Source: a virus. From it: 64,000 nt of DNA. Of the stretch, positions 5,901 through 29,528 are shown piece by piece (position 1 is the stretch's first letter; every line of letters starts with the position of its first letter). The stretch is taken from positions 7,904-71,903 of the IMG/VR virus record IMGVR_UViG_3300029893_000005, one strand, 5' to 3'. Position numbers and translations under genes: made by a program. Under the pieces are notes generated by a model. It searched no databases and had not been told where the DNA came from. It worked only from the letters and a program-made list of their open reading frames with translations.

Positions 5901-6417
5901 GTGGCGATACTGGTGCGGAATGCTCGTTACGTTGTGCCCGATCCTGTGTCTGGGTGCTGGAACTGGACCAGAAGCCTCAACGACCAGGGTTACGGACAGT
6001 TCACTTACGCTGGTAAGACGTATCGCGCCCACAGGGCGCTGTACGCCTACTACACAGGCGAGGACGTTCGGGGAAAAGTGCTCTGTCATCGTTGCGACAA
6101 CAGGGCTTGCTGCAATCCCGGGCATATCATTGCGGGCACACAGGCCGACAACCTTCGAGACATGGTGTCCAAGGGCCGCCACTGGACGGTCAACAATCCC
6201 GACAAGCGCCCACGGGGGGACGCGCACTGGACGAAGCGCACCCCCATCTCGGAACCATACGGGTTCTCGGAAGAAGCGGCTGACGGCGGAGCAGGTGCAG
6301 CAGGTAGAGGAGCGCATGGCGGAGGGGGCGTCTACTCTTCGCACACTGGCGGAAGAGTTCTCAGTGAGCATGTCCACCATTAACCGTATTCGCCGCAAGG
6401 CGGGGGCATACGCCTGA
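5901..6417 (+). pseudogene. HNH endonuclease with C-terminal HTH, split by a +1 frameshift
   Basis: Frame 5901 carries CWNW...GYG...RAHR...LCHRCDNRACCNPGH...DN. The HTH (LTAEQV...TLAEEFSVSMSTINRI) is in the +1 frame and ends at a TGA that overlaps the portal ATG. A C5 run lies at 6241-6245. Confidence 0.7.
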
Positions 6418-8408
6418 TGGCTGCCGCGTTGGATTATCTGGGCTACGTGAAGCAGAAGGGCCAGAACCAACTGGTCTCCCCTGTGACACGCCCGCACGAT
6501 GCCGATGGGTCGGGCGCCTACCTTTCCGATACCGCCCGCTTCGTCCTCGAACTGCTCGACGAAGCCACGCGCTACCGCAAGCCCTTCTCCGACCAGTGGA
6601 GCAAGTACTACAGCCGGTACCGCGGCAACACCTGGAAGCCCACCGACCTGCCTCGGGCGCAGCGGTGGAAGGCCTACCTGACGGTCAACTACTCCCAGTC
6701 CATCATCGAGACCATCCTGGCGGTGCTGTTCGGCAGCCCGCCCAAGATCGTCTTCAGTGCCACGGCACGGGAGCAACACCCCTACGTCGAGACCATTCAG
6801 GCGGCGATGGACAGCGTGTGGCGCCGCGCCAAGGGCTCCCGCCACACCCTCAATGCCTTCAAGAACGCTTGTATCTACGGTACCGGGTACCTGAAAATCT
6901 GGTGGGACGAGACGGCTGAGGACGGCAAAGGCGGTATCCGCTTCGATCTGGTGCCCACCGAGAACATCTGGGTGGACCCGATGGCGGACAACCTGGACCG
7001 GGCCGAATACGTCATCGAGGTCAAGCGGGTCCCGCTCTCCTACATCCGCCGCAACTACCCGGAGCGCGGCAAGTACGTGCGCACGGGTACCGCGAAGGAG
7101 CAGGCCTCCTACGCCGAGATGAAGGCGACCGGCATGTTCAGCCGCGACCCGCAGGGCCCAGCCACCCTGGTGTCGGCCACCTACGGGGTGCAGCCCCTCA
7201 TCAACTACGGCGAAGCCTTCGGCACCGCTACACCCTCGGTGGGCCAGTCGCAGGAGCAGTGGTGCGATCTCTACGAGGTGTGGTACCGGGATCACTCGAT
7301 GGTGACCGAGACCCTGCCTATCCAGATCGGCGTCGACCCGAACACCGGGCAGCCGCAGGTGATCATGCATACGGTCACCCGCAAGCGGTACCCCAACGGG
7401 CGGGTGTTCCACTATGCCGGCGGGGTGTGCCTCGACGACGGCCCGGCTCCGTACACCAAGTGGCCCTACGTCAAGTTCACCTTCAACCCGATGCCGGGTG
7501 AGTTCTACGGCCAGGGCGCTATGGAGATCCTGCGGGACCTCCAGATCGAACTCGACAAGCGGCGCTCCGACATCGTGAACCACGCCAACCTGATGAGCAA
7601 CGCGGTCTGGATCGTCGATCGCGGCTCCCAGGTGGACCGTCGCATGCTGACCAACGAGCCCGGCCTCGTCATCGAGAAGAACCAGGGCACCGAGGTGCGC
7701 CGCGAGTCCCCCATGCAGCTCCCCAACTGGATGCTGCAGGCGGTGGACATGACCATCCGCGACCTGCGCGAGGTCATCGGGGTGCCGGCCACGGCTTCCG
7801 GCCAGCCCCCTCGTGGCGTGCGCAGCGGCAGCGGCTTCGAGGCGGCCCAGCAGATCGCCAACACCCGCATCCACCTGCTCGGACTGTTGATGAAGGACTC
7901 CCTGGAGGACCTCGCGGGTATCTGCGTGGCCCTGATGCAGCAGAAGTACACCCGTCCCCGCATCGTGCGGCTGGTGGGCAGTAACGGCACGCCCTACTGG
8001 GTGCCATTCGACCAGCACGCCGCCCGCGGTGACTGGGACATCGAAGTCGAGGTCGACTCCATGAGCGCGTTCCTGCGGGCGGCCCGCGCCCAGCAGGCCA
8101 TCCAGCTCTACCAGTTGCAACTGCTCGACAAGCGGGGCGCCCTGGAGGGAGTGCAGTGGCCCAATCGTGAGGCGGTGCTGCGGCGCATGGGCGACATGAG
8201 CGGCAGCGGGATCGAGGATTACGATGGAAGTCCTGGAGTGCCCAACCGCGATCGCTCTGATCAGTCCGGGTACGCTCTGTCTGTTCGGAAGGCTGCTCCT
8301 GCAGGTCCCGGAGCCGCACCTCCGAGTCCTGCTGGAGCCATGCCTGCTTCGATTCCTCCCATCGGCGGAACCCCGGGTGGTTATCCTCCTCCGCCCGGTG
8401 GCGGATAA
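6417..8408 (+). CDS. Portal protein (P22-like/podovirus type) with a Pro/Gly-rich C-terminal tail
   Basis: 663 aa with W..YY..YRG, NAFKNACIYGTGYLKIWWD and P...FYGQG motifs; lies upstream of scaffold and capsid. Confidence 0.85.
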   Translation: MAAALDYLGYVKQKGQNQLVSPVTRPHDADGSGAYLSDTARFVLELLDEATRYRKPFSDQWSKYYSRYRGNTWKPTDLPRAQRWKAYLTVNYSQSIIETILAVLFGSPPKIVFSATAREQHPYVETIQAAMDSVWRRAKGSRHTLNAFKNACIYGTGYLKIWWDETAEDGKGGIRFDLVPTENIWVDPMADNLDRAEYVIEVKRVPLSYIRRNYPERGKYVRTGTAKEQASYAEMKATGMFSRDPQGPATLVSATYGVQPLINYGEAFGTATPSVGQSQEQWCDLYEVWYRDHSMVTETLPIQIGVDPNTGQPQVIMHTVTRKRYPNGRVFHYAGGVCLDDGPAPYTKWPYVKFTFNPMPGEFYGQGAMEILRDLQIELDKRRSDIVNHANLMSNAVWIVDRGSQVDRRMLTNEPGLVIEKNQGTEVRRESPMQLPNWMLQAVDMTIRDLREVIGVPATASGQPPRGVRSGSGFEAAQQIANTRIHLLGLLMKDSLEDLAGICVALMQQKYTRPRIVRLVGSNGTPYWVPFDQHAARGDWDIEVEVDSMSAFLRAARAQQAIQLYQLQLLDKRGALEGVQWPNREAVLRRMGDMSGSGIEDYDGSPGVPNRDRSDQSGYALSVRKAAPAGPGAAPPSPAGAMPASIPPIGGTPGGYPPPPGGG

Positions 8409-8442: not shown

Positions 8443-8925
8443 ATGATGCCTGGAATGGGGATGCCCCCGCAGGGGGGCCCTCCCGGACAGCCCGACCCGC
8501 AGAAGATGATGGCGCTGATGGCGGCCATGCAGCAAATGCGCGGTGGCGGAGGCCCTCCCGGTGTGCCGGGCATGGGGGCTCCGCCCATGCCGCCCAACGC
8601 CCAGGGCCCCCCACCGATGGGGATGCCGGTGCCGAGCATGGGGGCTCCGATGGGGCCGCCGCCCGGTCCGCCCATCACCCGCCCCGGCATGTCGGACGGC
8701 CTCAACAAGGGGCTGCTGATGATGGTCAACATCGGTCAGCAGATCCTGCGGCAGATGGACCCCGCCTCGGAGCCCGCCGACCGGCTGGCTTCGGTGCTGC
8801 GCGACCTCGACGAGATTCTGGCCCGGATGAATTCCTCTTCGATGGGGTCGTTCGGGCCGGACGGACCGCTGCCGGACCGCGGGCTCCCCCGCGAGCCCGA
8901 CCAGCCGGCCATGAGTCCGCGATAG
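8443..8925 (+). CDS. Met/Pro/Gly-rich low-complexity protein with a short helical C-terminus
   Basis: 160-aa ORF with GGGAGG SD. Confidence 0.6.
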   Translation: MMPGMGMPPQGGPPGQPDPQKMMALMAAMQQMRGGGGPPGVPGMGAPPMPPNAQGPPPMGMPVPSMGAPMGPPPGPPITRPGMSDGLNKGLLMMVNIGQQILRQMDPASEPADRLASVLRDLDEILARMNSSSMGSFGPDGPLPDRGLPREPDQPAMSPR

Positions 8926-10636: not shown

Positions 10637-11587
10637 ATGTCTCTCGATACCCTCTCGTCGGTGACCTACCGGGAGATTCTCCCCTACGTCGTCGATCAGG
10701 TTCTCCTGAGCAACCCGACGCTGGCGCTGATGTTCCAGAACACCGTCTTCCTCGACGGCGGAACGCACATCTCGCAGCCCATCGTCATCAACAAGAACTC
10801 CACCCCGGCCTCGTACAGCGGTGCGGATCCGCTGAACATGGCCTTCGACGACGAACTCACCTCGTTCGAGTTCAACTGGGCTCAGTATTACGCGACCATC
10901 GCGTACACGGGCCTGGACGATCTGCGCAACGGCGGCGAGAACGCGGTGGCCAACCTGCTCAAGATCCGCTCCCAGATCGCGGAGTACAGCCTCCGCGAGA
11001 CCATGGGCTCGGACCTGCAGGGCGACGGCACCGGCAACTCCAACAAGGCCATGACGGGCCTGTCGGCCGCGATCGACGACTCCACCAACGTGGCGACCTA
11101 CGGCAACGTGTCGCGCACCACGGTCACCGCGATCCGCGCCCAGTACAGCGCCAACGGCGGCGTGGGCCGCGGGCTCACCATCCCGCTGCTCATCACCAAC
11201 TACCAGAACTGCAGCAAGGACAACGACCGGCCGACGCACCACGTCACCACGCCCGGCATGTTCAGCCGGTACGTCCAACTGCTGACGCCCACCATCCGCA
11301 CGGGCGACGACGCCACGGCCAACATGGGGCACCCCAACGTGCTGTTCATGATGCGTCCGGTGATCGCCGACGATCAGGTGGCGACCACGCCCAACCACCG
11401 CTGGTGGATGATCAACATGCGGCACTGGACCTTCTACGTCCACCGCGCCCGCAACTTCATGTTCGTGCCCTTCGCTCGCGTGACGGGCCAGGACGTGGCG
11501 CTGGCGCACATCCTGTTCGCGGGTCAGCCGATCTGCGACCAGCCCCGCCTGCAGGGCCAGATCCGCGATCTGGACCCGAACGCCTAG
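10637..11587 (+). CDS. Major capsid protein (HK97 fold)
   Basis: DQVLLSNPTL...DGGTHISQPI...YSGADPL...FNWAQYYATI...L.GDGTG...GL pattern; strongly biased codons; AAGGAG SD. Confidence 0.85.
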   Translation: MSLDTLSSVTYREILPYVVDQVLLSNPTLALMFQNTVFLDGGTHISQPIVINKNSTPASYSGADPLNMAFDDELTSFEFNWAQYYATIAYTGLDDLRNGGENAVANLLKIRSQIAEYSLRETMGSDLQGDGTGNSNKAMTGLSAAIDDSTNVATYGNVSRTTVTAIRAQYSANGGVGRGLTIPLLITNYQNCSKDNDRPTHHVTTPGMFSRYVQLLTPTIRTGDDATANMGHPNVLFMMRPVIADDQVATTPNHRWWMINMRHWTFYVHRARNFMFVPFARVTGQDVALAHILFAGQPICDQPRLQGQIRDLDPNA

Positions 11588-13589: not shown

Positions 13590-14249
13590 ATGCCCGCAGC
13601 CCCCCAGCCGATTCGCCTCGTCGACCTGCGCCAGCGGGCGCTGGCGTTCATCAACGAGTCCGACACCGACAGCCACTACGCGGCGTCGGTCGTCAACGGC
13701 TACCTCAACGACGCCTACCAGGAGATGATTGCCACCAATCCCAACACCGCCATCGAGGATATCTGGACGTTCAAGACGCAGGTGGGGAAGCGGGAATACC
13801 CCCTGCCCACGGGCTTCTTGAAGATGGGGCGGCTGTTCTACGACGGGCATCGGGTGCAGCCGGGCAGCACGCGGGACATGACCTTCTGGACGTCGACCAA
13901 CGGCTGGGTGACGCTGTACGACATCTGGGGAGGGAACCTGCTGCTGGGCCCCTCCCCTCCCTCGGAGGCCAGGACGGTCACGGCCTACATCTTCCGCGAG
14001 CCGGCCTTGATGACCGACGATGATGACGAGCCCGAGGGCGTCCCTAACTTCTTGCGGCCGGGGCTGTACTACTACGCCATCGCCATGCTGGTGTCACACG
14101 AGGGGGACCCCACCGGCACCGACACCAAGATGATGGCTCGCTTCAAGGAGTACACCAAGCGGTACGTGGAGTGGCGCCTCTACAGCGGGCGGGACGAGTA
14201 CGCCGTGGTGCGGGACGTCCGCGACGTCAACGAGGACTGGTTCCTGTAG
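13590..14249 (+). CDS. Head-tail adaptor / tail tubular protein A-like
   Basis: L.DLRQR...YLNDAYQE...EYPLP.GF....L.YYA pattern; precedes the nozzle. Confidence 0.65.
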   Translation: MPAAPQPIRLVDLRQRALAFINESDTDSHYAASVVNGYLNDAYQEMIATNPNTAIEDIWTFKTQVGKREYPLPTGFLKMGRLFYDGHRVQPGSTRDMTFWTSTNGWVTLYDIWGGNLLLGPSPPSEARTVTAYIFREPALMTDDDDEPEGVPNFLRPGLYYYAIAMLVSHEGDPTGTDTKMMARFKEYTKRYVEWRLYSGRDEYAVVRDVRDVNEDWFL

Positions 14250-16604
14250 ATGAGGGGCGCATTCCGCGGGCCGCATCAACTCTGGGCTCTCTCGAACTTC
14301 ACGGGCGGGGAGACTTTCTTGCAGCGCGAGGATCGGGAAGCCGAGATCATGGTCAACTTCGAGTTGATGCGGGACGGCTACCTCACCAACCGCCTGGGTA
14401 CCACGCGGCTCAACGCCAATGATATCGGCGCCGAGATGATCGTGGGCATGGATTTGGTAGGGCAGACCAAGGTGCTGATCGCCAAGTCCGGCACCACCTT
14501 CTACTACGGAGACATCAACCCCACCATCACGTTCTCCTCGTTTACCGTGCCCAAGTCCCCAGGTAGCGATCCCGTGCGTTTCGCCAGCGCAGGCGATGCC
14601 CGAGCCTACTACATGGTGAACAAGAACTTCACCGGCGTAGTCAAGTGGGACGGAGCCAGTGGCTCCGCTTCGGTGGTTTCCGGCTCTCCTGTGGGGGAGT
14701 ACATCTCGCATTACAACAAAGTCATGTACGTTGCGGGGGACCCTGCGCATCCGAACCGCCTGTACCACAGCGACGCCGCTGCCTACGATTCGTGGCCGGC
14801 CCTCAATTACATCGACATCTCTCCGCGGCACGGCTTCATCACTGGCATGGTCAATCAGCCGGGCCAACTCATCGTTTTCTGTGAGCGGGCCATCCTGACG
14901 CTGCGGGGGCAGCCGCCTCTGCGCTACAACCTCGACGCGGTACATGAGTATGTCGGGTGCGACCATCCCGCCAGCCTCAGTTCCTTCGGCTCGGTCTCGG
15001 TGTTCCGCTTTCGTGGCAACCTGATTCAGTTATCCTCCACGGTGGAGGTTCTTTCCGATCAGGTCCGCGGGTACAGTCCGCACATCGCCGGGTCGACGGA
15101 CGTGAATCGTTCCTGGGGAGTGCTGACGCCGAACTACTACGTCCTGGCGCAGTCCACCAATCCGGGGAGTACGCGGTACGCTCCGTCTTCGACAAACCCG
15201 TTGCGGTTGTTCATCTACGACCGCACGCGGTACCAATGCTTCTACCGTTGGGCGTATCCGCCCGAATCCGCGGTAGGCCACTACGTCGGAGCGCAGGCGG
15301 TAGTGGCCGCTCCCGAGGGGCATGCCTTCTACATCGCAGGCGGGGACGGCAACGTGTATCGCCAGAGTCTGCGCCAGTGGTCCGCGGACTACAGTTACAC
15401 TACTTCTTCGGTATCTTTTACCAAGGACCGTGATATCTGGCTTGACGCATCCCAGGACGGTACCGGCCAGGGACCCACCCCGACTACGGAGGCGGCCTAT
15501 ACCGGGATTCTCGACGCTGACGAGTTGGTGGGGTTCACCATTACGACCGAGAATCGTTCGTGGTATGACCGCACCAACACGGGGCACGTCACCAGCGTGA
15601 CATTCAAGAAGACGGCCCCGAATGTCTGGGCCTACACCATCAACGGCATCGCCGCGGCCGGTGCCTGGGACGGCACCGTACCTTCGGCCAACGACACGGG
15701 TACCATCACCTTCACCGCGGGGGTGGTTTCGGATGTCAACGGCGGAGGAGCCGTGGCTTTCGACCTAGTGATCGGAGATGATACGGCGGGGGACCAGACG
15801 GTCAGCGTGGATTTCACGGCCCTGACACAGCCCAGCGCCGGTGGTACCGGCGACAGTACGGTGGACGCCGCGGATGCCACGTCCGCAGATGGGTCCGGCG
15901 CGATTTCGTTGGGGTTGACCACCGAGGCAGATTGGACCGGGGTGCTGGACTCCTCGGCCGCGGTGGCGGCTACCGCCGTGCAGTCGCTGGCTTGGTGGGA
16001 TCGCAGCGGAGTATCCCACCGTGTTGTCTTGACGTTGACCAAGACGGTGAACAACGCAGGGTTGGACGACACCTGGACCTACGCCATCACCGGGTTCACC
16101 GGGGGCGTATGGGTCGGCCTGACGTCGGGGGCGAGCACGGGTACGCTGACCTTCAACGCAGCGGGCGCCCAGACGTCTCCGGTCACTACCACCCTGGTGA
16201 TCGATGACGGGACCACGGGAGGGCAGAGCATCGACGTAGACTTGACCGGGATCACCAGCGTTGCGGGTGGCGGGGAAGACGTCATGGGGCAGTGGAGGTC
16301 GAGACGGCTGGATATGGGCAGTCCGTTAATCCAGAAGACCTATCGTCGCGTCCTGGTAGCGGGACAGGGTACGGCTACGCTGGCGACGCGGCAATATGGG
16401 GTTGACGGCACGCAGCGGCTCAACACCCTGTTCACCAACCAGAGCCTACCGCGGGACACGCGGCAGCCCGCCTTCAGCGGCGCCAGCGGATACCCCCGCT
16501 TCTCGGAAATCCAACTCGAACTGACCGGGACGGACTTGTGGGTGAAGGCCCTGGCCATGGAGTGGCGAGCCATTCGCTTGTCGGGAGGTAACGCACCGGC
16601 ATGA
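14250..16604 (+). CDS. Tail nozzle / tubular protein B-like with two inserted FlgE D2-like domains
   Basis: Beta-propeller-like body (NF...DG.L..R.G; YVAGD..HPNRLYHSD; ITGM...LIVF.E). The insertion at ~15483-16270 contains two flagellar-hook-like repeats. Confidence 0.7.
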   Translation: MRGAFRGPHQLWALSNFTGGETFLQREDREAEIMVNFELMRDGYLTNRLGTTRLNANDIGAEMIVGMDLVGQTKVLIAKSGTTFYYGDINPTITFSSFTVPKSPGSDPVRFASAGDARAYYMVNKNFTGVVKWDGASGSASVVSGSPVGEYISHYNKVMYVAGDPAHPNRLYHSDAAAYDSWPALNYIDISPRHGFITGMVNQPGQLIVFCERAILTLRGQPPLRYNLDAVHEYVGCDHPASLSSFGSVSVFRFRGNLIQLSSTVEVLSDQVRGYSPHIAGSTDVNRSWGVLTPNYYVLAQSTNPGSTRYAPSSTNPLRLFIYDRTRYQCFYRWAYPPESAVGHYVGAQAVVAAPEGHAFYIAGGDGNVYRQSLRQWSADYSYTTSSVSFTKDRDIWLDASQDGTGQGPTPTTEAAYTGILDADELVGFTITTENRSWYDRTNTGHVTSVTFKKTAPNVWAYTINGIAAAGAWDGTVPSANDTGTITFTAGVVSDVNGGGAVAFDLVIGDDTAGDQTVSVDFTALTQPSAGGTGDSTVDAADATSADGSGAISLGLTTEADWTGVLDSSAAVAATAVQSLAWWDRSGVSHRVVLTLTKTVNNAGLDDTWTYAITGFTGGVWVGLTSGASTGTLTFNAAGAQTSPVTTTLVIDDGTTGGQSIDVDLTGITSVAGGGEDVMGQWRSRRLDMGSPLIQKTYRRVLVAGQGTATLATRQYGVDGTQRLNTLFTNQSLPRDTRQPAFSGASGYPRFSEIQLELTGTDLWVKALAMEWRAIRLSGGNAPA

Positions 16605-17041
16605 GCAGCGGGCTGTATCCCCTTTTTAACCCCGGTCCCGGAGATTCCGATAAGGTGCGCATTGAGGGGTGCGAGCGGAATATCCTGGACCTCTACAAGA
16701 TCCTGGCAGGGCTATCCTTCGTTTCGATGGGAGAGGACGCCGAGTTCACCGCCCTTATGCAGGGCTCGGGGGCCGCTACTCGGGCGATGGTCACTTCTGC
16801 TGTTTCCGCGGTGGGAGACGCCTCGGCGATGGAGGCGCGGGGGGTCAGTCGCACTGAGGTACAACGGATGCTCGACGACCTGCGTAATGAAATTTCTCAG
16901 CAGGCCCGTGGAATCTCCCGCGCTGAAGCGCAGCGGATGGTTGAGGAGGCCGTTCAGGCGGCCTCTATGGTACAGGGGATCAGTCGCTCGGAGGTTCGTA
17001 AGATGATCGACGACGCCATGACCAGCGTCATCATGGATTGA
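16601..17041 (+). CDS. Coiled-coil tail protein with three G(V/I)SRxE(V/A)xxM repeats
   Basis: GVSRTEVQRMLDD / GISRAEAQRMVEE / GISRSEVRKMIDD. Confidence 0.55.
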   Translation: MSSGLYPLFNPGPGDSDKVRIEGCERNILDLYKILAGLSFVSMGEDAEFTALMQGSGAATRAMVTSAVSAVGDASAMEARGVSRTEVQRMLDDLRNEISQQARGISRAEAQRMVEEAVQAASMVQGISRSEVRKMIDDAMTSVIMD

Positions 17042-17381: not shown

Positions 17382-18029
17382 ATGGGCGCTTCCCCGCTGC
17401 AGCGGGCTTCTGTTGTCCTGGCGCAATGGCTGCATAACGCAGACCTCTGGTGGAGGTCGGGCACGAACTTCACCGGCAAGGCCGTTCACAACATCACCGC
17501 GGATCGAACCTGGACCTTCCAGAATCGTGACGGGACGATTGCCGATGATACGGATCTGGCTCTGAAGGCAGACGCTGTGGACAACGTAGTCCAGCGGGTC
17601 TTCAACTCCTTCGCGACCGTGGACACTGGCTCGACATTGATGGTGCAGGACAACACCATCCCGCAGAACGTCGAGGGCGACGAGTACTGTACGCTCTCCA
17701 TCACGCCCACGAGCGTCACGAACCGCCTGCGGATCCGAGCCAAATTCCATGTTTCGAGTTCGGTTACTAATAATATTATCATGGCGCTGTTCCAGGACAG
17801 CACGGCGAATGCGCTCGATGCGTCCTGGATCTCGCTTCCTTCAGACAATTCCTACGCCACACTGATTCTTGAGTACACCATGGTGGCTGGAACCACGTCG
17901 GCCACGACGTTCAAGATCCGCATCGGAGGTGTACTGGCAGGAACCACTACGATCAATGGCTTCTCGTCGGCGCAGAAACTCGGCGGAACCCTGCTCTCGA
18001 CCCTAGAGATCCTGGAGGAAGCCGTATGA
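17382..18029 (+). CDS. Short tail-fibre-like protein
   Basis: C-terminal VVQ...LSITPTS..N.L.I...TFKIR.G...TIN...S.L.I.E pattern typical of fibre tip domains. Confidence 0.6.
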   Translation: MGASPLQRASVVLAQWLHNADLWWRSGTNFTGKAVHNITADRTWTFQNRDGTIADDTDLALKADAVDNVVQRVFNSFATVDTGSTLMVQDNTIPQNVEGDEYCTLSITPTSVTNRLRIRAKFHVSSSVTNNIIMALFQDSTANALDASWISLPSDNSYATLILEYTMVAGTTSATTFKIRIGGVLAGTTTINGFSSAQKLGGTLLSTLEILEEAV

Positions 18030-21038: not shown

Positions 21039-22514
21039 ATGGACGCCCTCGTAAAGGCTACCCAGACCCTGGCGGACACTACCTCGGCTATTCAGCGCCA
21101 GCAGCGCATGGCGCAGCAGGAGGCTGCCCAGCGCCGCCGCGAGGCTGACGTCGATCGCCGCATCGAACTGCAGGAGTGGAATGCGCTGCAATCGGCACGG
21201 CGGCAGCAGTTCAGCCAGGGCGTGCAACTCTATCAGTTGCGGCGGCAGGCGGAGCAGGACTACGAGAGCCAACTCCAGCAGGCCGTTCAGTTGATCCTGG
21301 GACGGCTGGACAAGGCCAATGCCGCGGGGATGGACGTCTCCCGTATGCGACAGCAGGCGCTGGAGAAGTTGATCCCCTCCGTACAGCAGGCGGAGCAGAA
21401 CCGTCGAATCAGCGCCGCATTGACCGAGGCGGCGGCGGCTTTCGACTACCGATACGGTGACGAGTCGTTCCTCGCGTCGGATCCGGCAGGCGCCCAGAAG
21501 TTCCAGCACTTCATCAATTATGGGGCCAACCCGAAGACCAACAACAATGTTGCGGACCTGAAGGAATCGCTGGGCCCCTATGCGGTCTACTTTGACCGCT
21601 TCATACGGGACTACGCCGCCCTGCCCGCGGCTTCGCGCTCGGGGGCAGTACAGGCGTTCATGGACAAAAACGGCGTCCAGGAGGCGTTGAACCCCGCTCA
21701 GATTCAGCCGCTGCTGCAGGAGATCGCATCGATCCAACTCCCCGGGGAGGACCCTCGCGAGAAAGCGTTGTTGGCCCAGGCCACGAGCGTCTTTCAATAT
21801 CCCAGCAAGGACGCCTACGTGCAGGAGAAACTGGGTCCCTACGCCCAGTACGCAGGCGGAGCCCCGTCCGGCGGGGGCGTCCCCGCGGGGGGAGGTGCTG
21901 CGCCTCCGCAGCCGTCCCCCGGGCACCAGCAGTACCCGCTGACGCAGGAGACCAGCGGTGAGATCACCGGCCCGGTCATGAAGACGGGCGAGGGGACCTA
22001 CACCAACATCCTGTCGGGGCCGGTCGAGGGCGTCAACCAGAAGTACCTGGAGAAGTACCAGTCCCTGGTCGACCTGACCAACAAGTTGCAGGGCGCGGAA
22101 CCGGCCGCAGCCCCCGCGCCGCAACCCACCACTGTCGGCAAGTTCGACCCGGACAACACCGCGGCACCTCGGGGCGGCCTCGGCCTGGGCGGGCGCGACA
22201 TCGGGTCGGTCGACGTCACGGGCACGGGGGCGCCCCCGCCTGCGGATTACTCTTCGAAGTTGGCGACCTGGACGCAGACGCCCGGCTTCAAGAACGTCAT
22301 GCTCGACGTGCTGACCGGCGCCGTCGATGCGAATGACGTCATGGAGCGGGTCTACGCAGCGGCTGAAGCGGTCTACAAGGCCAGCGGCCAGCCCATGGAC
22401 CCGTCCGCGGTCAAGAACACGGCCTCGCTCATGTTCTCGGCGGTTAAGAATACCGGACTCCTCAACGAGCGCGGCTTCCCCAACCCGCAGCGGAACCTGA
22501 TGAGGGCGCCGTAG
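21039..22514 (+). CDS. Putative ejection protein with an N-terminal coiled coil
   Basis: 491 aa; Gln/Arg-rich N-terminal coiled coil. Confidence 0.5.
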   Translation: MDALVKATQTLADTTSAIQRQQRMAQQEAAQRRREADVDRRIELQEWNALQSARRQQFSQGVQLYQLRRQAEQDYESQLQQAVQLILGRLDKANAAGMDVSRMRQQALEKLIPSVQQAEQNRRISAALTEAAAAFDYRYGDESFLASDPAGAQKFQHFINYGANPKTNNNVADLKESLGPYAVYFDRFIRDYAALPAASRSGAVQAFMDKNGVQEALNPAQIQPLLQEIASIQLPGEDPREKALLAQATSVFQYPSKDAYVQEKLGPYAQYAGGAPSGGGVPAGGGAAPPQPSPGHQQYPLTQETSGEITGPVMKTGEGTYTNILSGPVEGVNQKYLEKYQSLVDLTNKLQGAEPAAAPAPQPTTVGKFDPDNTAAPRGGLGLGGRDIGSVDVTGTGAPPPADYSSKLATWTQTPGFKNVMLDVLTGAVDANDVMERVYAAAEAVYKASGQPMDPSAVKNTASLMFSAVKNTGLLNERGFPNPQRNLMRAP

Positions 22515-25500
22515 TGGCGCCCCGCCTCCCCGCCCTCGACGACTTCTCGTATTTCGAGGACGCAGTTCGCTCGGTGGTGCGCACGCCGGGGATTGGCCCT
22601 GCGTCCAATACTTTGGCTGTACAGCCAAACCCACCACCAAACGAGTTCGAAGGGTTTGAGGCCGCGGTGCGGGGGCTTCCCTTTGCGCAGCAGCCCGTCG
22701 AGCAGCCGTCTGCGACGCTCCCCGAGTTTGCCCCCTTTGAACAGGCGGCTCGTGAGGGTATCCAGTCCCTGCGGCGGGCCCGCCTCGAACGCGGCGAGCA
22801 GGAGGCCGCGGCTGCCTACGACTCCTCGCGAGATATCTTCGCGGCCGGGCGCCCGCTGCTGGAGACTCCGATGCGGGCCTGGAACGCGCTGAAGGGCGCT
22901 GATCTCGTGGGCGGCTACGTCCGCGACATGCAGGACGAGAGCGTGCCGTTGTGGGCCCGTGCGCTGCAGGGTACCTTCGGCGTGCCGCATGGAACCGCGA
23001 TCAAGTTGGCCACTTCGGGCATCGGTATCCGGCCCACCCCGCATGCGGATGAACTGGCGGAACGGGTGGCCCGCTTCGGCCCCGCGGGCGAGGGGGGCGC
23101 CGTCTTCGGCGGAGTGCCCGGCGCCTTCTACGACTTCTTGTTCGCCCTGGCGTCGGACCCGCTGATACTGGCTAGCGCCCCGGAGAAGGGTGTCGCCAAG
23201 ATCGGACGGCAGATGGCCCGCGAGGGGATCGAGACCGGCGGCGGTACGGCCCTGGCGGGAGTGCGCCCCGGCATCGAACTCCGCGGCTACCGCAAGGGGC
23301 CCGGCGTGAGCATCCCCGACATGATGCGGGGCAAGTTCGTGCCCGACGAGTATGTGGACCGGGTACTGGCCCCCGAGATGCTGCGCCGCGAGATCGAGAA
23401 GGCCGCCGCCCAGGCGGACCCCGCCGTCTTCGAGCCGAAGGGGCTGCGGGAGGCGCTGGGGCTGGGCACCTTCGACGCGGACAGGTCCGTGCTGGCCGCC
23501 ACGGGGGCGCTGCCTCCGCCCGTGGCTGCGCTACGGGAAACTCTGGAGAACGTGCAGGGACGAGGGCCGGCCTTCCCGGACTACGTGCGGGCGCGAGACG
23601 AGTTCCGCAAGATGCCCTACGAATCAACCGAGCAGTTGGTCCCTCGCAGCATCCGCCAGTCCCCGTTGGGGCAGCGGCTGGGCTTCCAGCAGAATATCCT
23701 GTCGGACCTGGAAAAGGGCCCCACCGCGGCCAACACCAAGTACCGCACCCTCAACCCGTTGTGGGACCCGGACGTCCCCCTGGCGGAGCGGGCTCGCCTC
23801 TACGCCATGGAGGAGGCCAAGATCGCCCGCGGCATCAAGGAAGGCGGCCCGAAACTACGCTTCGCCGGTATCAAGACGCCGCTGACCTCCCCCGTTCCCG
23901 TGGCCGCCAGTCTCGTGGGCCGCGCCTTCGGCAACTGGCTCGATAAGGGGCAGGAACTGCGGGTTCCGTTGGCCGAGCGGGTGGTGACGCCCGCGGGCGA
24001 GTCGGGGCACGCCTACGTGGCGGGGCGGCAGTGGACCGACCCGGCCAGCGGAACGACCCGTGACTGGAGCACAGCAGCGCCCGCACCCTTTGCCGGGGGC
24101 TCGGCGCTCGACGTGGCCAAGGACGTGATGCCCGGCCTGATCTCCGATACCACGGATCTGTCCAACCTGGAGAAGGCGGTTCGCATCTACCAGACCGGCG
24201 CAGCCGCCCTGGCTCGCGGCTTCGAGCGGACCTACCGCTCGGCCGCCAGCGCTATTCACCGTGGGGGCATCCTGACCGCAGCCAGCCGGGCACCGGGCGA
24301 GGCCTCGGTGTCCAAGCCCATCTTCCGGGACTGGCTGACGCGCACCCTGAAGTCCTACTCACAGGCGGAGCGGGGCGTGAAGTTCGACCAGTGGCGCAGC
24401 ATCTACCAGTTGCTGCACGACGTCAAGGCGGCCAACCCCGAGTTGAAGTTGTCGGTGGAACTGCCGGACCTGAAGGAGACCCTCGACGAGTTCGACCGGC
24501 TGGCGAGGGACGAGAAATTCTGGCAGCCGCTGGTGCCGGATACGGTGGGCCCGATGCCCGTCCGCGCCTTCCAGCAGGAACTGTGGGCCCGCGTTAACAC
24601 CTTCCAGGAGCGCATGGCGACGCTGATGGATCGCCCGCTGGACGAGATGTCCATCGATGCATCGAGCCCCAACGTGGTCGGACAACTCGACCGCATGACG
24701 CAGAACGCAGCGAAGTTCTTCGACAGCCCCGAAGGAAAGGACGAGATCGCGGGGCTGTTCGGGGCGCTCGACGAGTGGCTGCAGGCCATGGTACCGGCTG
24801 ATGTGGCGGCCACCAACTACAATCAGGTCCATCAGGCCGTCGAGGTTGCGGGACGGCGGGCTGCGGAATCCGCCCGCATGCAGTCGGTGTTCGAGAGCAT
24901 GCTGGACGCCTCGCTGCGCCAGCCCATGAGCGGGCTGGAGTTGACCGCCAAGTTGCTGGCCGGGCAGAGGTGGAACAACCCGGTGCGCCGGGCGCTGCGC
25001 GAGATGGTCAAGACCCAGCGGAAGACCGTCCCCGAACTGGACCTGAGCGCCATCACGCCCGAGGAGGTGGCGGCGCAGAAGGACGCCATGATCGAGGCCA
25101 TCGACAAGGCGCAGACCGCGGGGCGCCTCACCGATCCGGAAGTCTCCAACCTCGTGGGCTTCCTCGACGAGGTAAGCGCGAACACCGCCGCCTGGGGCGG
25201 CTACATGCGGCTGATGAAGAACGTCTCCGACCTGACCAACTACGAGATGGCGGTGGCTTCGGTCACCAAGCGTGTGTTCGAGCCGCTCAAGCGGGTGTAC
25301 CAGCGGGCGGACAACGCCGCCCGGGAGTTGTCCCGCAAGACCATGAACGACCTCGTGCAGCAGTTGTCGTCGGAGCAGGTGATCTACCAGCCCCACGGGC
25401 CCGGCAAGTGGGCATGGGTGAAGGCAGCCCTCAACCGCCTCGACGATACCCAGGCCCAGATCATGCGCTTCGCGGGCGTGCCCGAGGCCTTGGCTCGTAC

Positions 25501-27655
25501 CGTCCGAGAGAACGATGACGCCCTGCTCTACGCCGACCGAGAGGCGGAGGGGTGGGTGCTGCGCGACTTCCTGCGGGATGAAGTGGAGGCCTCCATCCAG
25601 GAAGTGAAGGGCTTGCCCAGAGAGGCCCTCATTTCGCGGCGGGAACTGACCGACCTCAATGAAGGCTACATGAAGATCGCTGCCAACGAAGGAGCGGACG
25701 CCTTCACCCATGCCGACCCCGCCGTGCAGACGTGGGTGCGACAGCGGGGCGCGGACCGCATCGCCGAAGGATGGCGGCTGCTGGAAGCCCACTTCGGCGA
25801 CCGTGCCGGTGCCGAGACGTGGTTCCGGAACATGCAGGCCCGCTTGAACCGCGTCAACGAGGAGATGTTCAACTTCGAGCGCGAGATGGGCATGGTGGAC
25901 GTGCGCCGCAAGAACTACGTCCCCCACCTGCTCTCGGGCTCCTACGCCGACCAGGATCGTTTCTGGCGGTGGATGGCGGGCAAAGAGGTAGACGAGTGGG
26001 CGCTGGGGCAGCGCCCCCTGGTGAGCGAGAAGTTCGCCCCGGGCCTGACCCGCGACATGAAGACCATGGCGGAGTTGGAGTATTACCTGGGGGTGCTGAA
26101 GGAAAACCTCAAAGGCAGCCAGCCTCTCGACCTCGACACCGCCTACCACCTGACCGCGGCCATGGGGCACCGCCGCCTGCTGCACAACCGTGCGGTCGGG
26201 GTGCGCAAGTTCGTCACCCAGTTGCAGTCGGTGATGCCCGGCCACCTGCTCCCAATGGGGCTGGCGCGGCCGGACTCGAAGATGGCGCAGGCCTTCGCCA
26301 AGGCGCAGTTCCGCAACCTCGGAGACCTGATTCCCTCGCTGCGGGACTGGTGGGCGCATCAGGACATCTACACCTTCCTGGAGTCGCGAGTGGCCAAGAA
26401 CGCCACCATGCTCGACTTCGAGGGCGAGGTGTTCGGGCCGTGGCGTTTCCTCCGCGAACTGCAGCGATCGCTGAAGTGGCTCAACACCACCTTCGACATC
26501 TACCACATCAAGAACATCATCGCCCTGGGCCTGTTCTCGGACACCGACCTGGGCCGTGCCGTGAACATCATGAGCCGCGCCTGGAAGAACCGCGGCACCG
26601 GGCTGGGGGCGGCGCACGAGCGGCGGCTGGCTCCCATCGAAGCCTGGGTGGAGGGCCTGGAGAAGGACCCGATGTATCAACTCGGGCTCAAGCACGGCCT
26701 CACCCCGTTCCGCGGTCACGAGTATCAGGTCCCCCTGGTGGACCGCATCATGTCCGAGATGCGCCCCATCGAAGGCAACCGGCAGGCAGCCGCCGCCATC
26801 GTGCGGGACTACCGCCTGCGGGGTGGGCCGGGCTCGAAGGTCACCTTCGACATCATGGACCAAGCGGTGAAGCAGGCCAAGTTCGAGGAGATGCTGGAGC
26901 AGGGCATCCCCGCCCACCACGCCGCGGATCTGGCCAACCACTATCTCATCGACTACTCGCTGCGGTGGATGAACCCGAACCTGCGCAACACCGCCTACGC
27001 CATCTTCCCCTTCTTCGCCTGGAAGATCGGCAACTGGGCCGTCCACCCCACCCAGTTCCTGGAGCGGCCGGGGCGGTACATGGTGTGGAACCATCTGCGT
27101 GAGGCAGTCACGAATTTCTTCACAGGAGACCAGTCCGGGGAATACTACGACGCCCTGACCGAGATGGCGGCCGGCGGCATGATCATCCCGCTGGAGGACC
27201 CGGTGACCGGCAACCAGATGGTCTTCGATCTGGCCCTGCCTTCGGATTCCATCTTCGCTCCCTTCCGCCGCATGTCGCAGGAACACCCGTTCGAGTGGCC
27301 GGTGGAGTTCACACGGTACTTCATGGGCAACATCTGGGACATGCCGTACAGGTGGCTGGCCCAGACCGACAACCAACGCCGCTATGAGATCACCCAGCAG
27401 ATCGCCCAGCAGGGCTGGCAGGAGTGGCTCAAGACCGGCGTCTTCGGCACCCCCGAGCAGGAGGGCTGGGCGTCCAGCCTGACCTGGGGCATCCAGCCCT
27501 GGAAGGACCTCGGGGGGCTGATGATCGACCCCAGCAAATGGCAGAACTGGGACTTCTACATCTGGAAGTTCACCATGGAGAACTTCGGCAACACCACGCA
27601 GATGGTGCCCAGCAGTATCACGGGCAAGCCCAGGAGAGCGCCTCTGTCCCCGTAG
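22514..27655 (+). CDS. Very large (1713-aa) putative internal virion/ejection protein
   Basis: Size, helical composition, NYVPH motif and a C-terminal IFPFFAW segment typical of large ejected phage proteins. Confidence 0.6.
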   Translation: MAPRLPALDDFSYFEDAVRSVVRTPGIGPASNTLAVQPNPPPNEFEGFEAAVRGLPFAQQPVEQPSATLPEFAPFEQAAREGIQSLRRARLERGEQEAAAAYDSSRDIFAAGRPLLETPMRAWNALKGADLVGGYVRDMQDESVPLWARALQGTFGVPHGTAIKLATSGIGIRPTPHADELAERVARFGPAGEGGAVFGGVPGAFYDFLFALASDPLILASAPEKGVAKIGRQMAREGIETGGGTALAGVRPGIELRGYRKGPGVSIPDMMRGKFVPDEYVDRVLAPEMLRREIEKAAAQADPAVFEPKGLREALGLGTFDADRSVLAATGALPPPVAALRETLENVQGRGPAFPDYVRARDEFRKMPYESTEQLVPRSIRQSPLGQRLGFQQNILSDLEKGPTAANTKYRTLNPLWDPDVPLAERARLYAMEEAKIARGIKEGGPKLRFAGIKTPLTSPVPVAASLVGRAFGNWLDKGQELRVPLAERVVTPAGESGHAYVAGRQWTDPASGTTRDWSTAAPAPFAGGSALDVAKDVMPGLISDTTDLSNLEKAVRIYQTGAAALARGFERTYRSAASAIHRGGILTAASRAPGEASVSKPIFRDWLTRTLKSYSQAERGVKFDQWRSIYQLLHDVKAANPELKLSVELPDLKETLDEFDRLARDEKFWQPLVPDTVGPMPVRAFQQELWARVNTFQERMATLMDRPLDEMSIDASSPNVVGQLDRMTQNAAKFFDSPEGKDEIAGLFGALDEWLQAMVPADVAATNYNQVHQAVEVAGRRAAESARMQSVFESMLDASLRQPMSGLELTAKLLAGQRWNNPVRRALREMVKTQRKTVPELDLSAITPEEVAAQKDAMIEAIDKAQTAGRLTDPEVSNLVGFLDEVSANTAAWGGYMRLMKNVSDLTNYEMAVASVTKRVFEPLKRVYQRADNAARELSRKTMNDLVQQLSSEQVIYQPHGPGKWAWVKAALNRLDDTQAQIMRFAGVPEALARTVRENDDALLYADREAEGWVLRDFLRDEVEASIQEVKGLPREALISRRELTDLNEGYMKIAANEGADAFTHADPAVQTWVRQRGADRIAEGWRLLEAHFGDRAGAETWFRNMQARLNRVNEEMFNFEREMGMVDVRRKNYVPHLLSGSYADQDRFWRWMAGKEVDEWALGQRPLVSEKFAPGLTRDMKTMAELEYYLGVLKENLKGSQPLDLDTAYHLTAAMGHRRLLHNRAVGVRKFVTQLQSVMPGHLLPMGLARPDSKMAQAFAKAQFRNLGDLIPSLRDWWAHQDIYTFLESRVAKNATMLDFEGEVFGPWRFLRELQRSLKWLNTTFDIYHIKNIIALGLFSDTDLGRAVNIMSRAWKNRGTGLGAAHERRLAPIEAWVEGLEKDPMYQLGLKHGLTPFRGHEYQVPLVDRIMSEMRPIEGNRQAAAAIVRDYRLRGGPGSKVTFDIMDQAVKQAKFEEMLEQGIPAHHAADLANHYLIDYSLRWMNPNLRNTAYAIFPFFAWKIGNWAVHPTQFLERPGRYMVWNHLREAVTNFFTGDQSGEYYDALTEMAAGGMIIPLEDPVTGNQMVFDLALPSDSIFAPFRRMSQEHPFEWPVEFTRYFMGNIWDMPYRWLAQTDNQRRYEITQQIAQQGWQEWLKTGVFGTPEQEGWASSLTWGIQPWKDLGGLMIDPSKWQNWDFYIWKFTMENFGNTTQMVPSSITGKPRRAPLSP

Positions 27656-28844: not shown

Positions 28845-29528
28845 ATGAGTTTCAGAAGGCCGAACCCGGGGGAACGGGGCTATGAGCGGTACCTGGAGTG
28901 GGAACGGCAGAACAGGGATATAGCCCTGCAGGAGCGGGAGAGGAGAAAGCGGGGCGAGGGCCGCCCTGGCCCCAGTCCGTACACAGGCCTGAACCCGGAG
29001 CAGGCCGAGCGGATGCGTCAGATCCTGGAGAACGGGGGGGTTCAAGCCACAAGCGGGGGTAACACAGGCTCCAGCACGGACGCTCTGCGGGAAGCGGTAG
29101 AACTCTACACAGGCGGACAGGGGCTGCCGAACCGCCCGAGCGGGGAGTTGCCGCCCTTCCGCCCCACGAACCGCCCCGCGAACAGCAACTACTACACCAA
29201 CCCGGCGACCGGGCAGACCATGTACAAGCCCGGTGGGATGAACTCGCCCTATCAAGTCGAGCCCACGTCGCAGCAGACACAGACGTACCGGCAAGCGCCC
29301 CAGCAACAGACCCAGATGTACCAGCCAACAGGAAGCAGCGGAGGAGCCACTTACTGGGGAGGGGGCGAGGGTACCAGCGATCTGCAGCAACAGCAGATGC
29401 GGCAGCGCCAGCAGAAGCCGGCGGCAGGGGGCCAGGGCTTTGCTGCAGCGGGTAGCAACCTGTACGGAGACAACGCCGGCTACAGCCAGTCGTCAGCCCC
29501 GGATCTCGCCGCGTGGGGGGTGCTCTGA
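28845..29528 (+). CDS. Low-complexity Gln/Gly/Arg-rich hypothetical protein
   Basis: 227-aa ORF with AGGAGG SD; coupled to the next gene by TGATG. Confidence 0.55.
   Translation: MSFRRPNPGERGYERYLEWERQNRDIALQERERRKRGEGRPGPSPYTGLNPEQAERMRQILENGGVQATSGGNTGSSTDALREAVELYTGGQGLPNRPSGELPPFRPTNRPANSNYYTNPATGQTMYKPGGMNSPYQVEPTSQQTQTYRQAPQQQTQMYQPTGSSGGATYWGGGEGTSDLQQQQMRQRQQKPAAGGQGFAAAGSNLYGDNAGYSQSSAPDLAAWGVL

What the first reader, a model, noticed from the sequence alone, without database searches (positions are those of the whole stretch)
15483..16270. Two tandem flagellar-hook (FlgE D2/FlaE-like) domains inserted in the phage tail nozzle
The 784-aa nozzle-like protein carries two ~115-aa repeats, starting at 15483 and 15918. 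Each follows TT...(W/Y)TG.LD...(S/W)(Y/W)DR.G..H....T.KT...W.Y....GT(I/L)TF...G....Q(T/S)(V/I).VD(F/L)T..T. This matches the FlgE hook D2 pattern as recalled (TT...NL.S...VYDSQG.AH...F.KT..NEW...TL.F..NG...L.F...Q). The linker (STV...DG.G) resembles the post-D2 segment of FlgE. The nozzle sequence resumes after the insert (QWRSRRLDMG...KTYRRV). Inference: the phage captured and duplicated a host flagellar hook domain and displays it on the tail, possibly for flagellum or hook-junction attachment, mimicry, or receptor binding.
Basis: partly seen in the sequence, partly recalled or inferred. Interest (0 to 1): 0.88.

Follow-up and report, generated by a model that had tools for sequence, protein, structure and literature searches.

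The report
Flagellar hook-type domains on phage tail
An uncultivated short-tailed phage carries, inside its tail-hub (nozzle-like) protein, two copies of a beta-barrel domain otherwise found on bacterial flagellar hooks and giant flagellins, an apparently unreported transfer of a flagellar surface module to a virus, whose function is untested.

Summary
The 784-aa ORF at 14250-16604 (+) holds two tandem ~135-aa repeats, 36% identical (BLASTP E 5e-15).

They sit in a ~276-aa in-frame insert (aa 396-671). Three homologs of 510-515 aa (50-56% identical) lack it cleanly. Contigs from other sequencing runs bridge both junctions, so it is not an assembly chimera.

The FlgE D2 reading is supported:
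- Pfam PF07559 matches both repeats; repeat 2 passes the curated cut-off.
- An AF2 model of repeat 2 (pLDDT 90) matches only FlgE D2 structures (Z 8.0-11.4; next best 4.6).
- The ESM Atlas's own model of the insert also has only hook neighbours.
- No viral structure, PHROG family or sequenced phage matches.

- The nearest relatives (38-47% identity) are tandem repeats in the variable middle of giant flagellins, including one from an Armatimonadetes MAG. That MAG's own hook D2 is close behind.
- The two phage copies are not sisters on the tree (0 of 200 bootstraps; AU p 0.055). A two-domain block was probably captured, not duplicated in the phage.

The carrier's tail-hub/nozzle identity is inferred, not shown. 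It rests on position after an SU10-type adaptor and on Atlas neighbours of the P22 gp10 type.

Function (adhesion, perhaps to flagella) is untested, and the host is unknown. This scan had earlier noted the reverse case, phage-type barrels on flagellar proteins, on other DNA.

The parts
13590..14249 (+). Head-to-tail adaptor gene directly upstream (219 aa)
   Evidence: Pfam PF24175 SU10_adaptor, E 2.7e-17, 64.3 bits against a cut-off of 27; phrog_399.
14250..16604 (+). Whole 784-aa gene: tail-hub/nozzle-like virion protein with the insert (P0001)
   Evidence: ORF. Homologs P0003-P0005 are 50-56% identical. P0005 matches phrog_3287, virion structural protein, at E 4.4e-10. Atlas neighbours of P0003 are of the PF11134 (P22 gp10) type.
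14250..15434 (+). N-terminal body of the carrier (aa 1-395), conserved in the insert-less homologs
   Evidence: Alignment A1, with invariant columns up to D395.
15435..16262 (+). In-frame insert (aa 396-671, give or take a few residues), absent from P0003, P0004 and P0005
   Evidence: One clean gap in A1. Junctions are bridged by contigs of runs X5, X6 and X7. GC3 is the same as in the flanks.
15459..15860 (+). Repeat 1, FlgE_D2-type domain (aa 404-537)
   Evidence: Repeat HMM envelope. PF07559 E 9e-4, 20.2 bits. Best BLASTP hits are flagellin repeats of P0008 (38%, E 5e-28) and P0006 (41%), and the hook P0014 (38%, E 7e-16).
15861..15923 (+). Linker rich in Gly, Ser, Thr, Asp and Ala between the two domains (aa ~538-558)
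   Evidence: Read from the sequence. The first ~13 residues of the AF2 model have no strand and lower confidence (first 10 residues pLDDT 68).
15924..16262 (+). Repeat 2, folded core of the FlgE_D2-type domain (aa 559-671; the HMM envelope is aa 549-680)
   Evidence: PF07559 E 1.6e-5, 25.8 bits against a cut-off of 22.7. AF2 pLDDT 90, pTM 0.81. FlgE D2 is the only strong fold match. Best BLASTP hit is flagellin repeat P0006:247-385, 47% identity, E 6e-28.
16281..16604 (+). C-terminal body of the carrier (aa 678-784), conserved in homologs
   Evidence: Alignment A1, invariant from V678 onward.

Best explanation
SHOWN. The gene lies in the structural module of an uncultivated virus (IMG/VR record of 79 kb). 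The module has a P22/SU10-type portal, a major head protein and an SU10-type adaptor. The gene right after the adaptor carries an in-frame block of two beta-barrel domains of the FlgE D2 family, joined by a Gly/Ser/Thr/Asp-rich linker. The block sits in what is a short Ala/Gly-rich loop in three insert-less homologs, about 105 residues from the C-terminus.

INFERRED, carrier. The carrier is the hexameric tail hub or nozzle, the equivalent of P22 gp10, T7 gp12 and SU10 gp17. If so, 12 such domains would ring the tail tip.

INFERRED, origin. The block came from a bacterium. The family is overwhelmingly flagellar, and the phage copies nest among repeats that form the exposed variable region of giant flagellins, together with the hook D2 of the same lineage. 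The two copies were already different when acquired, so a two-repeat piece of a multi-repeat flagellin was captured, or there were two captures. The donor is unsampled, because the best identity is only 38-47%.

INFERRED, weakest step: function. The domains act as exposed accessory adhesion modules that raise adsorption. They may do so by making, with the host's flagellar filament or hook, the same lateral outer-domain contacts these domains make in the flagellum, or by binding cell-surface glycans. They are not needed for tail assembly or DNA delivery, since close homologs do without them.
For: Repeats are real. The insert is absent from homologs. The junctions are bridged by contigs of other runs.

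FlgE_D2 membership by sequence:
- PF07559 matches both repeats when scanned alone and all 9 family members, best E 1.4e-8.
- The repeat profile finds 560 proteins at E<=1e-3 among 1.84 billion. The top ones are giant flagellins, followed by bona fide hooks with Flg_bb_rod, LlgE_F_G_D1 and Flg_bbr_C.
- 93 of the 150 best hits have hook or rod termini.
- The phage repeats hit a hook D2 directly at E ~1e-15.

FlgE_D2 membership by fold:
- AF2 model pLDDT 90.
- The 25 best Foldseek PDB hits are all FlgE, TMq mostly 0.5-0.65.
- In an exhaustive VIA-align search, the only 8 chains with Z>=5 are FlgE (Z 8.0-11.4, rmsd 2.8-3.7 A over 115-129 residues); the next is 4.6.
- The ESM Atlas's own model, made without my alignment, has only hook clusters as neighbours of aa 396-681.

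Flagellin link:
- P0006 lies between Flagellin_N and Flagellin_C reading frames, next to FliW, CsrA and FlaG.
- Intact giant flagellins carry the same repeats (P0009; locus L023).
- On the trees, both phage repeats fall in a clade of 8 flagellin repeats plus 2 hook D2 domains (91/87). Repeat 1 is sister to P0008:300-444 (99/79). Repeat 2 groups with 3 flagellin repeats (96 SH-aLRT).

Carrier identity: SU10_adaptor directly upstream. The adaptor-then-this-gene order is the same in the homolog's contig, with one extra small gene between, and matches P22 gene order gp4-gp10-gp26. 74 of the 100 nearest named Atlas clusters for P0003 carry PF11134, with structural TM 0.77 over 456 residues.

Not a usual phage domain: no PHROG match, no INPHARED tblastn hit at E<=0.1, no BFVD fold match.
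Against: My own full-length model failed (pLDDT 33). So neither the hub fold nor an outward-facing position of the insert is shown here.

No sequence similarity to SU10 gp17, SU10 gp13 or P22 gp10 was found (hhalign).

The host is unknown. The phage occurs in subsurface and rock metagenomes, while the Armatimonadetes flagellin occurs in lake water. That MAG has no relative of the phage portal.

Identity to any known flagellar copy is below 50%, so the donor and the time of transfer are open.

The AU test does not formally reject a single phage clade (p 0.055).

FlgE_D2-type domains also occur in predicted lipoproteins without flagellar termini (P0017, P0019, P0027). A non-flagellar donor is therefore not excluded.

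No binding evidence of any kind exists.
Confidence: 0.55

Rival explanations
1. Structural nozzle extension. The two barrels are not adhesins. They build or lengthen the distal tail channel or a skirt around it, like the four Ig-like 'nozzle domains' inserted in the beta-propeller of SU10 gp17 or the nozzle tip of T7 gp12.
For: SU10's nozzle protein carries four beta-domains inserted between propeller blades 2 and 3, which rearrange to extend the tail (PMC9509320). The phage here has an SU10-type adaptor and portal. A related Atlas cluster of 658-aa proteins also carries an extra domain (DTP-pb9_B-dom in 82% of members), so this family accepts inserted domains.
Against: Homologs at 50-56% identity lack any such domains and have otherwise conserved flanks, so the channel does not need them. 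The linker is long and low in complexity, which fits flexible display better than a rigid tube. The fold is not Ig-like.
Confidence: 0.2
2. Near-neutral passenger. A piece of a flagellar gene was picked up by illegitimate recombination and is tolerated in a permissive surface loop, with no role in infection.
For: The site is a loop of variable length in homologs. No relative with the insert was found in phage collections, so the acquisition has not spread.
Against: The reading frame is intact over 828 nt. Both domains keep the family's conserved core positions and fold confidently. Codon composition is fully adapted. The gene is near-identical in several samples and studies.
Confidence: 0.15
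3. One reading: a single hook (FlgE) D2 domain was captured from the host and then duplicated inside the phage gene.
For: A hook D2 (P0014, from the Armatimonadetes MAG) is nearly as close as the flagellin repeats (38-39% identity, E ~1e-15). The AU test does not strictly reject a phage-only clade (p 0.055).
Against: Each phage repeat scores better against a different flagellin repeat (E 5e-28 and 6e-28) than against its partner (E ~1e-13). The two are never sisters in 200 bootstrap trees, and the constrained tree is 20.5 log-likelihood units worse. A starred branch separates them in the 142-row tree.
Confidence: 0.1
4. Generic beta-sandwich or Ig-like phage decoration domain that resembles FlgE D2 only by chance.
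For: Phage structural proteins often carry Ig-like domains (general knowledge). One flagellin repeat gives a weak Big_9 hit, and cadherin-like giants match the C-terminal third of the profile.
Against: Sequence, profile and two independent structure predictions all point specifically to FlgE D2, with a large gap to the next fold. No viral structure matches.
Confidence: 0.03

Closest known systems
D2 domain of the flagellar hook protein FlgE (Pfam PF07559; PDB 1wlg, 6jzt, 5jxl, 6ndt, 5ay6, 9wx3)
   Same: Same fold (Z 8.0-11.4, rmsd 2.8-3.7 A over 115-129 residues). The Pfam family matches. Direct BLASTP hits to hook D2 domains reach ~38-42% identity.
   Different: There are no D0/D1 segments and no Flg_bb_rod or Flg_bbr_C termini. 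The domain is not part of an axial flagellar protein: it sits in a virion protein, in two contiguous copies.
Tandem FlgE_D2-type repeats in the hypervariable region of giant flagellins (P0006 with its flanking reading frames in Armatimonadetes MAG VGFD01000040; P0008; P0009; three tandem genes in L023)
   Same: These are the nearest sequence relatives (38-47% identity). They share the beads-on-a-string arrangement with Gly/Ser/Thr-rich linkers, and they share a clade with the phage repeats on the domain tree.
   Different: The flagellins carry 5-7 copies between Flagellin_N and Flagellin_C. The phage carries 2 copies between the two parts of a tail-hub-like protein. Published giant flagellins (PMC6248924) are described with a different repeat, the 'DE region'.
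Nozzle or tail-hub proteins of short-tailed phages: SU10 gp17 (PMC9509320), T7 gp12, P22 gp10 (Pfam PF11134)
   Same: Same gene position after the adaptor. The insert-less size (~510 aa) is like P22 gp10 (472 aa). Atlas feature and structure neighbours carry PF11134. SU10 gp17 shows that extra beta-domains can be inserted in such proteins.
   Different: No detectable sequence similarity. SU10's inserted domains are Ig-like and essential to its nozzle, whereas here the domains have the FlgE D2 fold and are absent from close homologs.
Accessory Ig-like or carbohydrate-binding decoration domains of phage structural proteins (general knowledge, e.g. Hoc, and Big_2 or I-set insertions in tail proteins)
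   Same: A dispensable, surface-loop-inserted, beta-rich module in a virion protein, and the same kind of proposed role (weak adhesion).
   Different: A different fold and family, with a flagellar origin. No PHROG or BFVD counterpart was found.

Membership tests
Pfam PF07559 FlgE_D2 domain family | Score at or above the curated gathering cut-off (22.7 bits) | tested here: met
   Repeat 2 scores 25.8 bits, E 1.6e-5. Repeat 1 scores 20.2 bits, E 9e-4, just below the cut-off, but is 36% identical to repeat 2. All 9 members of the repeat family match, best E 1.4e-8. The match is not reported when the whole 784-aa protein is scanned.
Pfam PF07559 FlgE_D2 domain family | FlgE D2 beta-barrel fold | tested here: met
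   AF2 pLDDT 90. The 25 best Foldseek hits are all FlgE. VIA-align Z is 8.0-11.4 for the 8 FlgE representatives, and the next fold scores 4.6. The MSA-free ESM Atlas model has the same neighbours.
Flagellar hook protein FlgE (whole protein) | N-terminal Flg_bb_rod, a D1 domain (LlgE_F_G_D1) and a C-terminal Flg_bbr_C that polymerise into the hook | tested here: not met
   No such Pfam matches in P0001. The flanks are conserved with phage virion proteins instead.
Flagellin | Flagellin_N and Flagellin_C helical regions (D0/D1) | tested here: not met
   Absent from P0001. Present around the related repeats in L001, P0008 and P0009.
Podophage tail hub / nozzle (P22 gp10 PF11134; T7 gp12; SU10 gp17) | Sequence or profile similarity to a characterised member | tested here: not met
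   No Pfam hit. hhalign against SU10 gp17 and P22 gp10 gives probability below 1%. Only phrog_3287, 'virion structural protein', matches. Nozzle proteins of different phages are known to lack sequence similarity (PMC9509320), so this does not exclude the role.
Podophage tail hub / nozzle (P22 gp10 PF11134; T7 gp12; SU10 gp17) | Gene located after the adaptor gene in the head-tail module | tested here: met
   The SU10_adaptor gene ends at 14249 and this gene starts at 14250. The order is the same in the homolog's contigs L004 and L005, with one small gene between. P22 order is gp4-gp10-gp26.
Podophage tail hub / nozzle (P22 gp10 PF11134; T7 gp12; SU10 gp17) | Platform plus beta-propeller fold forming a hexamer under the adaptor | tested here: inconclusive
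   My own AF2 model failed (pLDDT 33, 4-sequence alignment). The Atlas model of homolog P0003 (pTM 0.75) aligns at TM 0.77 with a viral cluster in which 17% of members carry PF11134. 74 of the 100 nearest named clusters have that family.
Ig-like phage decoration domains | Ig-like fold or Big_x/I-set Pfam match | tested here: not met
   No Big or Ig family matches the phage repeats. Fold searches return no Ig-like structure above the noise.

The most novel reading that the evidence does not exclude
The phage uses flagellin- or hook-derived outer domains as a 'self-recognising' ligand. Twelve D2-type barrels around its tail tip would slot into the lattice of identical or similar outer domains on the host's giant-flagellin filament or hook. 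This would be flagellum-dependent adsorption by mimicry of a flagellar subunit's surface, a mechanism not described for any flagellotropic phage.
Probability: 0.15. Interest if true: 0.85.

Novelty: new variant of a known kind. Interest (0 to 1): 0.62.

Why it matters
Phage virion proteins are known to pick up accessory surface domains. Flagellar outer domains are known to be swapped and multiplied. A flagellar D2-type barrel on a phage tail does not appear in the phage collections, viral structure library or literature searched here.

It gives a concrete case of domain flow from the flagellum to a virus. Together with the reverse cases this scan noted earlier (unchecked here), it suggests that phage surfaces and flagellar surfaces share a pool of exposed modules.

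It also yields a testable idea for how a phage could recognise flagella. As a by-product, it shows that some giant flagellins (Armatimonadetes and unnamed metagenomic lineages) build their thick outer layer from 5-7 tandem hook-type D2 domains. That kind of giant flagellin differs from the published one.

The practical limit is that both phage and host are uncultivated.

Tried and rejected
- Full-length AF2 on the 4-sequence alignment A1 gave pLDDT 33 and is unusable.
- A combined alignment of carrier homologs and flagellin two-repeat pieces (A4) was misaligned and was not used.
- Further relatives of the carrier were sought. The 5.8-billion-protein word search gave only 3 homologs, plus one weak one (P0007). 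The IMG/VR pattern scan gave none, INPHARED tblastn gave none, and a PDB profile search gave only noise.
- hhalign of A1 against SU10 gp13, SU10 gp17 and P22 gp10 found nothing.
- Other phages with the insert domain were sought. IMG/VR patterns, INPHARED at E<=0.1, PHROGs and BFVD all gave nothing.
- A six-frame PF07559 search of the virus record found nothing. This was the tool's first-look filter missing a weak domain, not absence.
- Host link: the Armatimonadetes MAG has no portal relative. The phage and that MAG's flagellin occur in different habitats. The window has no tRNA.
- No direct repeats flank the insert beyond a 6-nt chance match, and there is no GC or GC3 contrast.
- The AU test on the 142-row tree did not finish in time. 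It was repeated on a 46-row subset.
- Literature searches for phage proteins with FlgE or flagellin domains found none.
Full report
**What is there.** The window is part of a 79,468-bp linear IMG/VR virus record. Around the finding lies a head-tail module on the + strand:
- a portal at 6417-8408 (phrog_156 E 1.9e-57; Pfam P22_portal and SU10_portal);
- a major head protein at 10637-11587 (phrog_9953 E 3.2e-53);
- an adaptor at 13590-14249 (Pfam SU10_adaptor E 2.7e-17);
- starting at the next base, a 784-aa ORF at 14250-16604 (P0001).

Residues ~404-545 and ~546-680 are tandem repeats, 36% identical over 130 residues (BLASTP E 5e-15).

A search of 5.8 billion proteins found only three homologs of the carrier: P0003, P0004 and P0005 (510-515 aa, 50-56% identical). 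In the alignment they match P0001 up to D395 and again from about A672/V678 to the end. One clean gap covers aa 396-671.

The insert is therefore a discrete, in-frame addition of ~276 residues at what is a short Ala/Gly-rich loop in the homologs. It is not an assembly artefact. The gene is held near-identically by runs from several subsurface and rock metagenome studies. Contigs from runs X5, X6 and X7 cross both junctions. GC3 of the insert (0.80) equals that of the flanks, and no flanking direct repeats are present.

**What the repeats are, by sequence.**
- Scanned alone, repeat 2 matches Pfam PF07559 (FlgE_D2) at 25.8 bits (cut-off 22.7; E 1.6e-5). Repeat 1 scores 20.2 bits (E 9e-4). The whole protein gives no such hit.
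- The only strong relative of the insert in the word-indexed database is P0006 (835 aa), made of about six copies of the same unit at 33-38% identity (E 1.5e-75).
- P0006 lies in bacterial contigs between a reading frame with Flagellin_N plus one more copy of the unit (FlgE_D2 31.2 bits) and a reading frame with Flagellin_C. FliW, CsrA, FlaG and glycosyltransferase genes are next to it.
- These contigs are 99.96-99.98% identical to contig VGFD01000040 of an Armatimonadetes MAG.
- Intact giant flagellins with the same repeats exist: P0009 (1105 aa, five copies) and three tandem flagellin genes in L023.
- A profile of the nine repeats (A3) matches PF07559 in all nine members (best E 1.4e-8). Its top PDB hit is Salmonella FlgE, at a marginal E 0.037.
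- Against 1.84 billion representative proteins the profile finds 560 proteins at E<=1e-3. The top ones are giant flagellins. Next come bona fide hooks with Flg_bb_rod, LlgE_F_G_D1, FlgE_D2 and Flg_bbr_C.
- Of the 150 best hits, 93 have hook or rod termini, 6 have flagellin termini and 51 have neither. The last group is fragments, a few lipoproteins and cadherin-type giants that match only part of the profile.
- The phage repeats themselves hit hook D2 domains directly (for example P0014, 38-39% identity, E ~1e-15). P0014 is the hook of the same Armatimonadetes MAG (100% identity).

**What the repeats are, by structure.**
- AF2 on repeat 2, with a 142-row alignment of family domains, gave pLDDT 90 and pTM 0.81, with nine strands.
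- The 25 best Foldseek PDB hits are all FlgE, from Salmonella, Treponema, Campylobacter, Pseudomonas, Caulobacter, Helicobacter and a polar-flagellum hook (TMq mostly 0.5-0.65). After them the probability collapses.
- An exhaustive VIA-align scan of 48,161 representative chains gave Z>=5 for exactly eight chains, all FlgE (Z 8.0-11.4, rmsd 2.8-3.7 A, 115-129 residues aligned). The next fold scores Z 4.6.
- My alignment contained hook sequences, so an independent check matters. The ESM Atlas's own alignment-free model of this protein has, for aa 396-681, only hook-protein clusters as structural neighbours.
- The viral structure library BFVD has no match (best E 0.16, TM<0.35). No PHROG family matches. 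No sequenced phage in INPHARED matches at E<=0.1. An IMG/VR pattern scan found nothing.

**Where the domains came from.**
- By BLASTP, repeat 2 is closest to flagellin repeats P0006:247-385 (47%, E 6e-28) and P0008:163-302 (44%).
- Repeat 1 is closest to P0008:300-444 (38%, E 5e-28) and P0006:542-679 (41%).
- The two phage repeats match each other less well (36-37%, E ~1e-13).
- In a 142-row tree, repeat 2 sits in a starred 4-row clade with three flagellin repeats (96 SH-aLRT).
- In a careful 46-row tree, both phage repeats fall in a 12-row clade (91/87) with eight flagellin repeats and two hook D2 domains. Repeat 1 is sister to P0008:300-444 (99/79). The two phage copies are sisters in none of 200 bootstrap trees.
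- Forcing the phage copies together costs 20.5 log-likelihood units. AU p is 0.055, which is borderline and not a formal rejection.
- The direction bacterium-to-phage follows from distribution: hundreds of flagellar carriers against one phage protein.
- The most economical reading is capture of a piece containing two already diverged repeats from a multi-repeat flagellin. The closest sampled lineage is Armatimonadota-like.
- With at most 47% identity the true donor is unsampled. The MAG itself is not the host: it lives in lake water and the phage in the subsurface, and it has no relative of the phage portal.

**What the carrier is.** This is the weakest part of the title claim.

Against a nozzle identity:
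- There is no sequence link to T7, SU10 or P22 proteins.
- My full-length model failed.

For it:
- The gene follows the SU10-type adaptor directly. The same order is found in the homolog's 80-kb contig, with one small gene between, and in P22 (gp4, gp10, gp26).
- P0005 matches phrog_3287, 'virion structural protein' (E 4.4e-10).
- For the insert-less homolog P0003, 74 of the 100 nearest named ESM Atlas clusters carry PF11134 (the P22 gp10 family). The Atlas model (pTM 0.75) aligns with such a cluster at TM 0.77 over 456 residues.
- Nozzle proteins of different podophages are known to lack sequence similarity (PMC9509320).

I take 'tail hub/nozzle' as likely, about three in four, but inferred.

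**How it probably works.**

Shown: two autonomous FlgE-D2-fold barrels on Gly/Ser/Thr/Asp-rich linkers, inserted in a loop that close homologs keep short.

Inferred: on a hexameric hub this would place 12 barrels around the tail tip. In hooks and in giant flagellins this domain is the outermost, solvent-exposed layer and contacts neighbouring copies (established for FlgE D2 in hook structures such as 3a69 and 6k9q). A role as an exposed, dispensable adhesion module is therefore the natural reading. The target could be the host's own flagellar outer domains or surface glycans.

Rival readings are a structural nozzle extension on the SU10 model and a tolerated passenger. None of these can be separated with sequence tools.

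**Comparison and novelty.** The domain is a member of PF07559 by score and by fold. The protein is neither a hook nor a flagellin, since the terminal polymerisation regions are absent. Accessory domains in phage tail proteins are a known kind, but a flagellar D2-type domain in one is not in the collections or literature I could search.

Earlier notes of this scan describe the opposite flow, phage-type barrels on hooks, junction proteins and flagellins in other genomes. I did not check those, but they fit a picture of a shared pool of surface modules.

**Verdict.** The feature is real, the FlgE-D2 assignment is solid, the flagellin-repeat origin is well supported, the carrier identity is probable, and the function is unknown.

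Noticed in passing
L001:7567-11782 (= L006:2091-6309; Armatimonadetes MAG VGFD01000040): A giant flagellin gene of ~1400 aa, with seven tandem FlgE_D2-type repeats, is split over three reading frames. The frame changes lie near L001 ~8560-8720 and ~11060-11130. The same breaks are present in four assemblies that are 99.96-99.98% identical, and the stretch is held by many lake-water runs. It could be a pseudogene, a systematic assembly error or a programmed frameshift; this is undecided.
   Followed up: partly
L023:1-8318: Three tandem, intact giant or large flagellin genes (825+, 948 and 1105 aa) lie in one metagenomic contig. The 1105-aa one (P0009) holds five FlgE_D2-type repeats and the first has a weak FlgE_D2 hit; the 948-aa one was not checked for them. 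This repeat is a different building block from the published 'DE region' of Oceanospirillales giant flagellins (PMC6248924).
   Followed up: partly
L031 (G001:C3, hook gene = P0014): The hook protein of the same Armatimonadetes MAG has two D2 domains (556 aa). Its first D2 clusters with the flagellin repeats and the phage repeats, so hook and filament of this lineage share one D2 subtype.
   Followed up: partly
P0017, P0019, P0027 (hits): FlgE_D2-type domains also occur in proteins with lipoprotein-like signal sequences and no flagellar termini. The domain is therefore not strictly confined to flagella.
   Followed up: no
window 16601-17041 (+): The 146-aa protein just after the hub gene has three ~25-residue repeats of the form G-x-S-R-x-E-x-x-x-M. 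It sits where P22 has its needle gene. No family match was found.
   Followed up: no
window 17382-18029 (+): A 215-aa protein has a near-threshold match to the Pgp3 C-terminal domain (PF05475, E 2.5e-5, 24.5 bits against a cut-off of 25). It is a possible receptor-binding knob.
   Followed up: no
window 29513-30202 (+): A 229-aa protein matches a metallo-endopeptidase family (phrog_7767, E 5e-8), also seen in tape-measure and endolysin families. It is a likely cell-wall-degrading virion or lysis protein.
   Followed up: no
window 22514-27655 and 30214-34071 (+): Two very large ORFs (1713 and 1285 aa) in the late arm have no PHROG match. Their position suggests ejection or internal virion proteins. 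A 1714-aa ORF sits in the same place in the homolog's contig L004.
   Followed up: no
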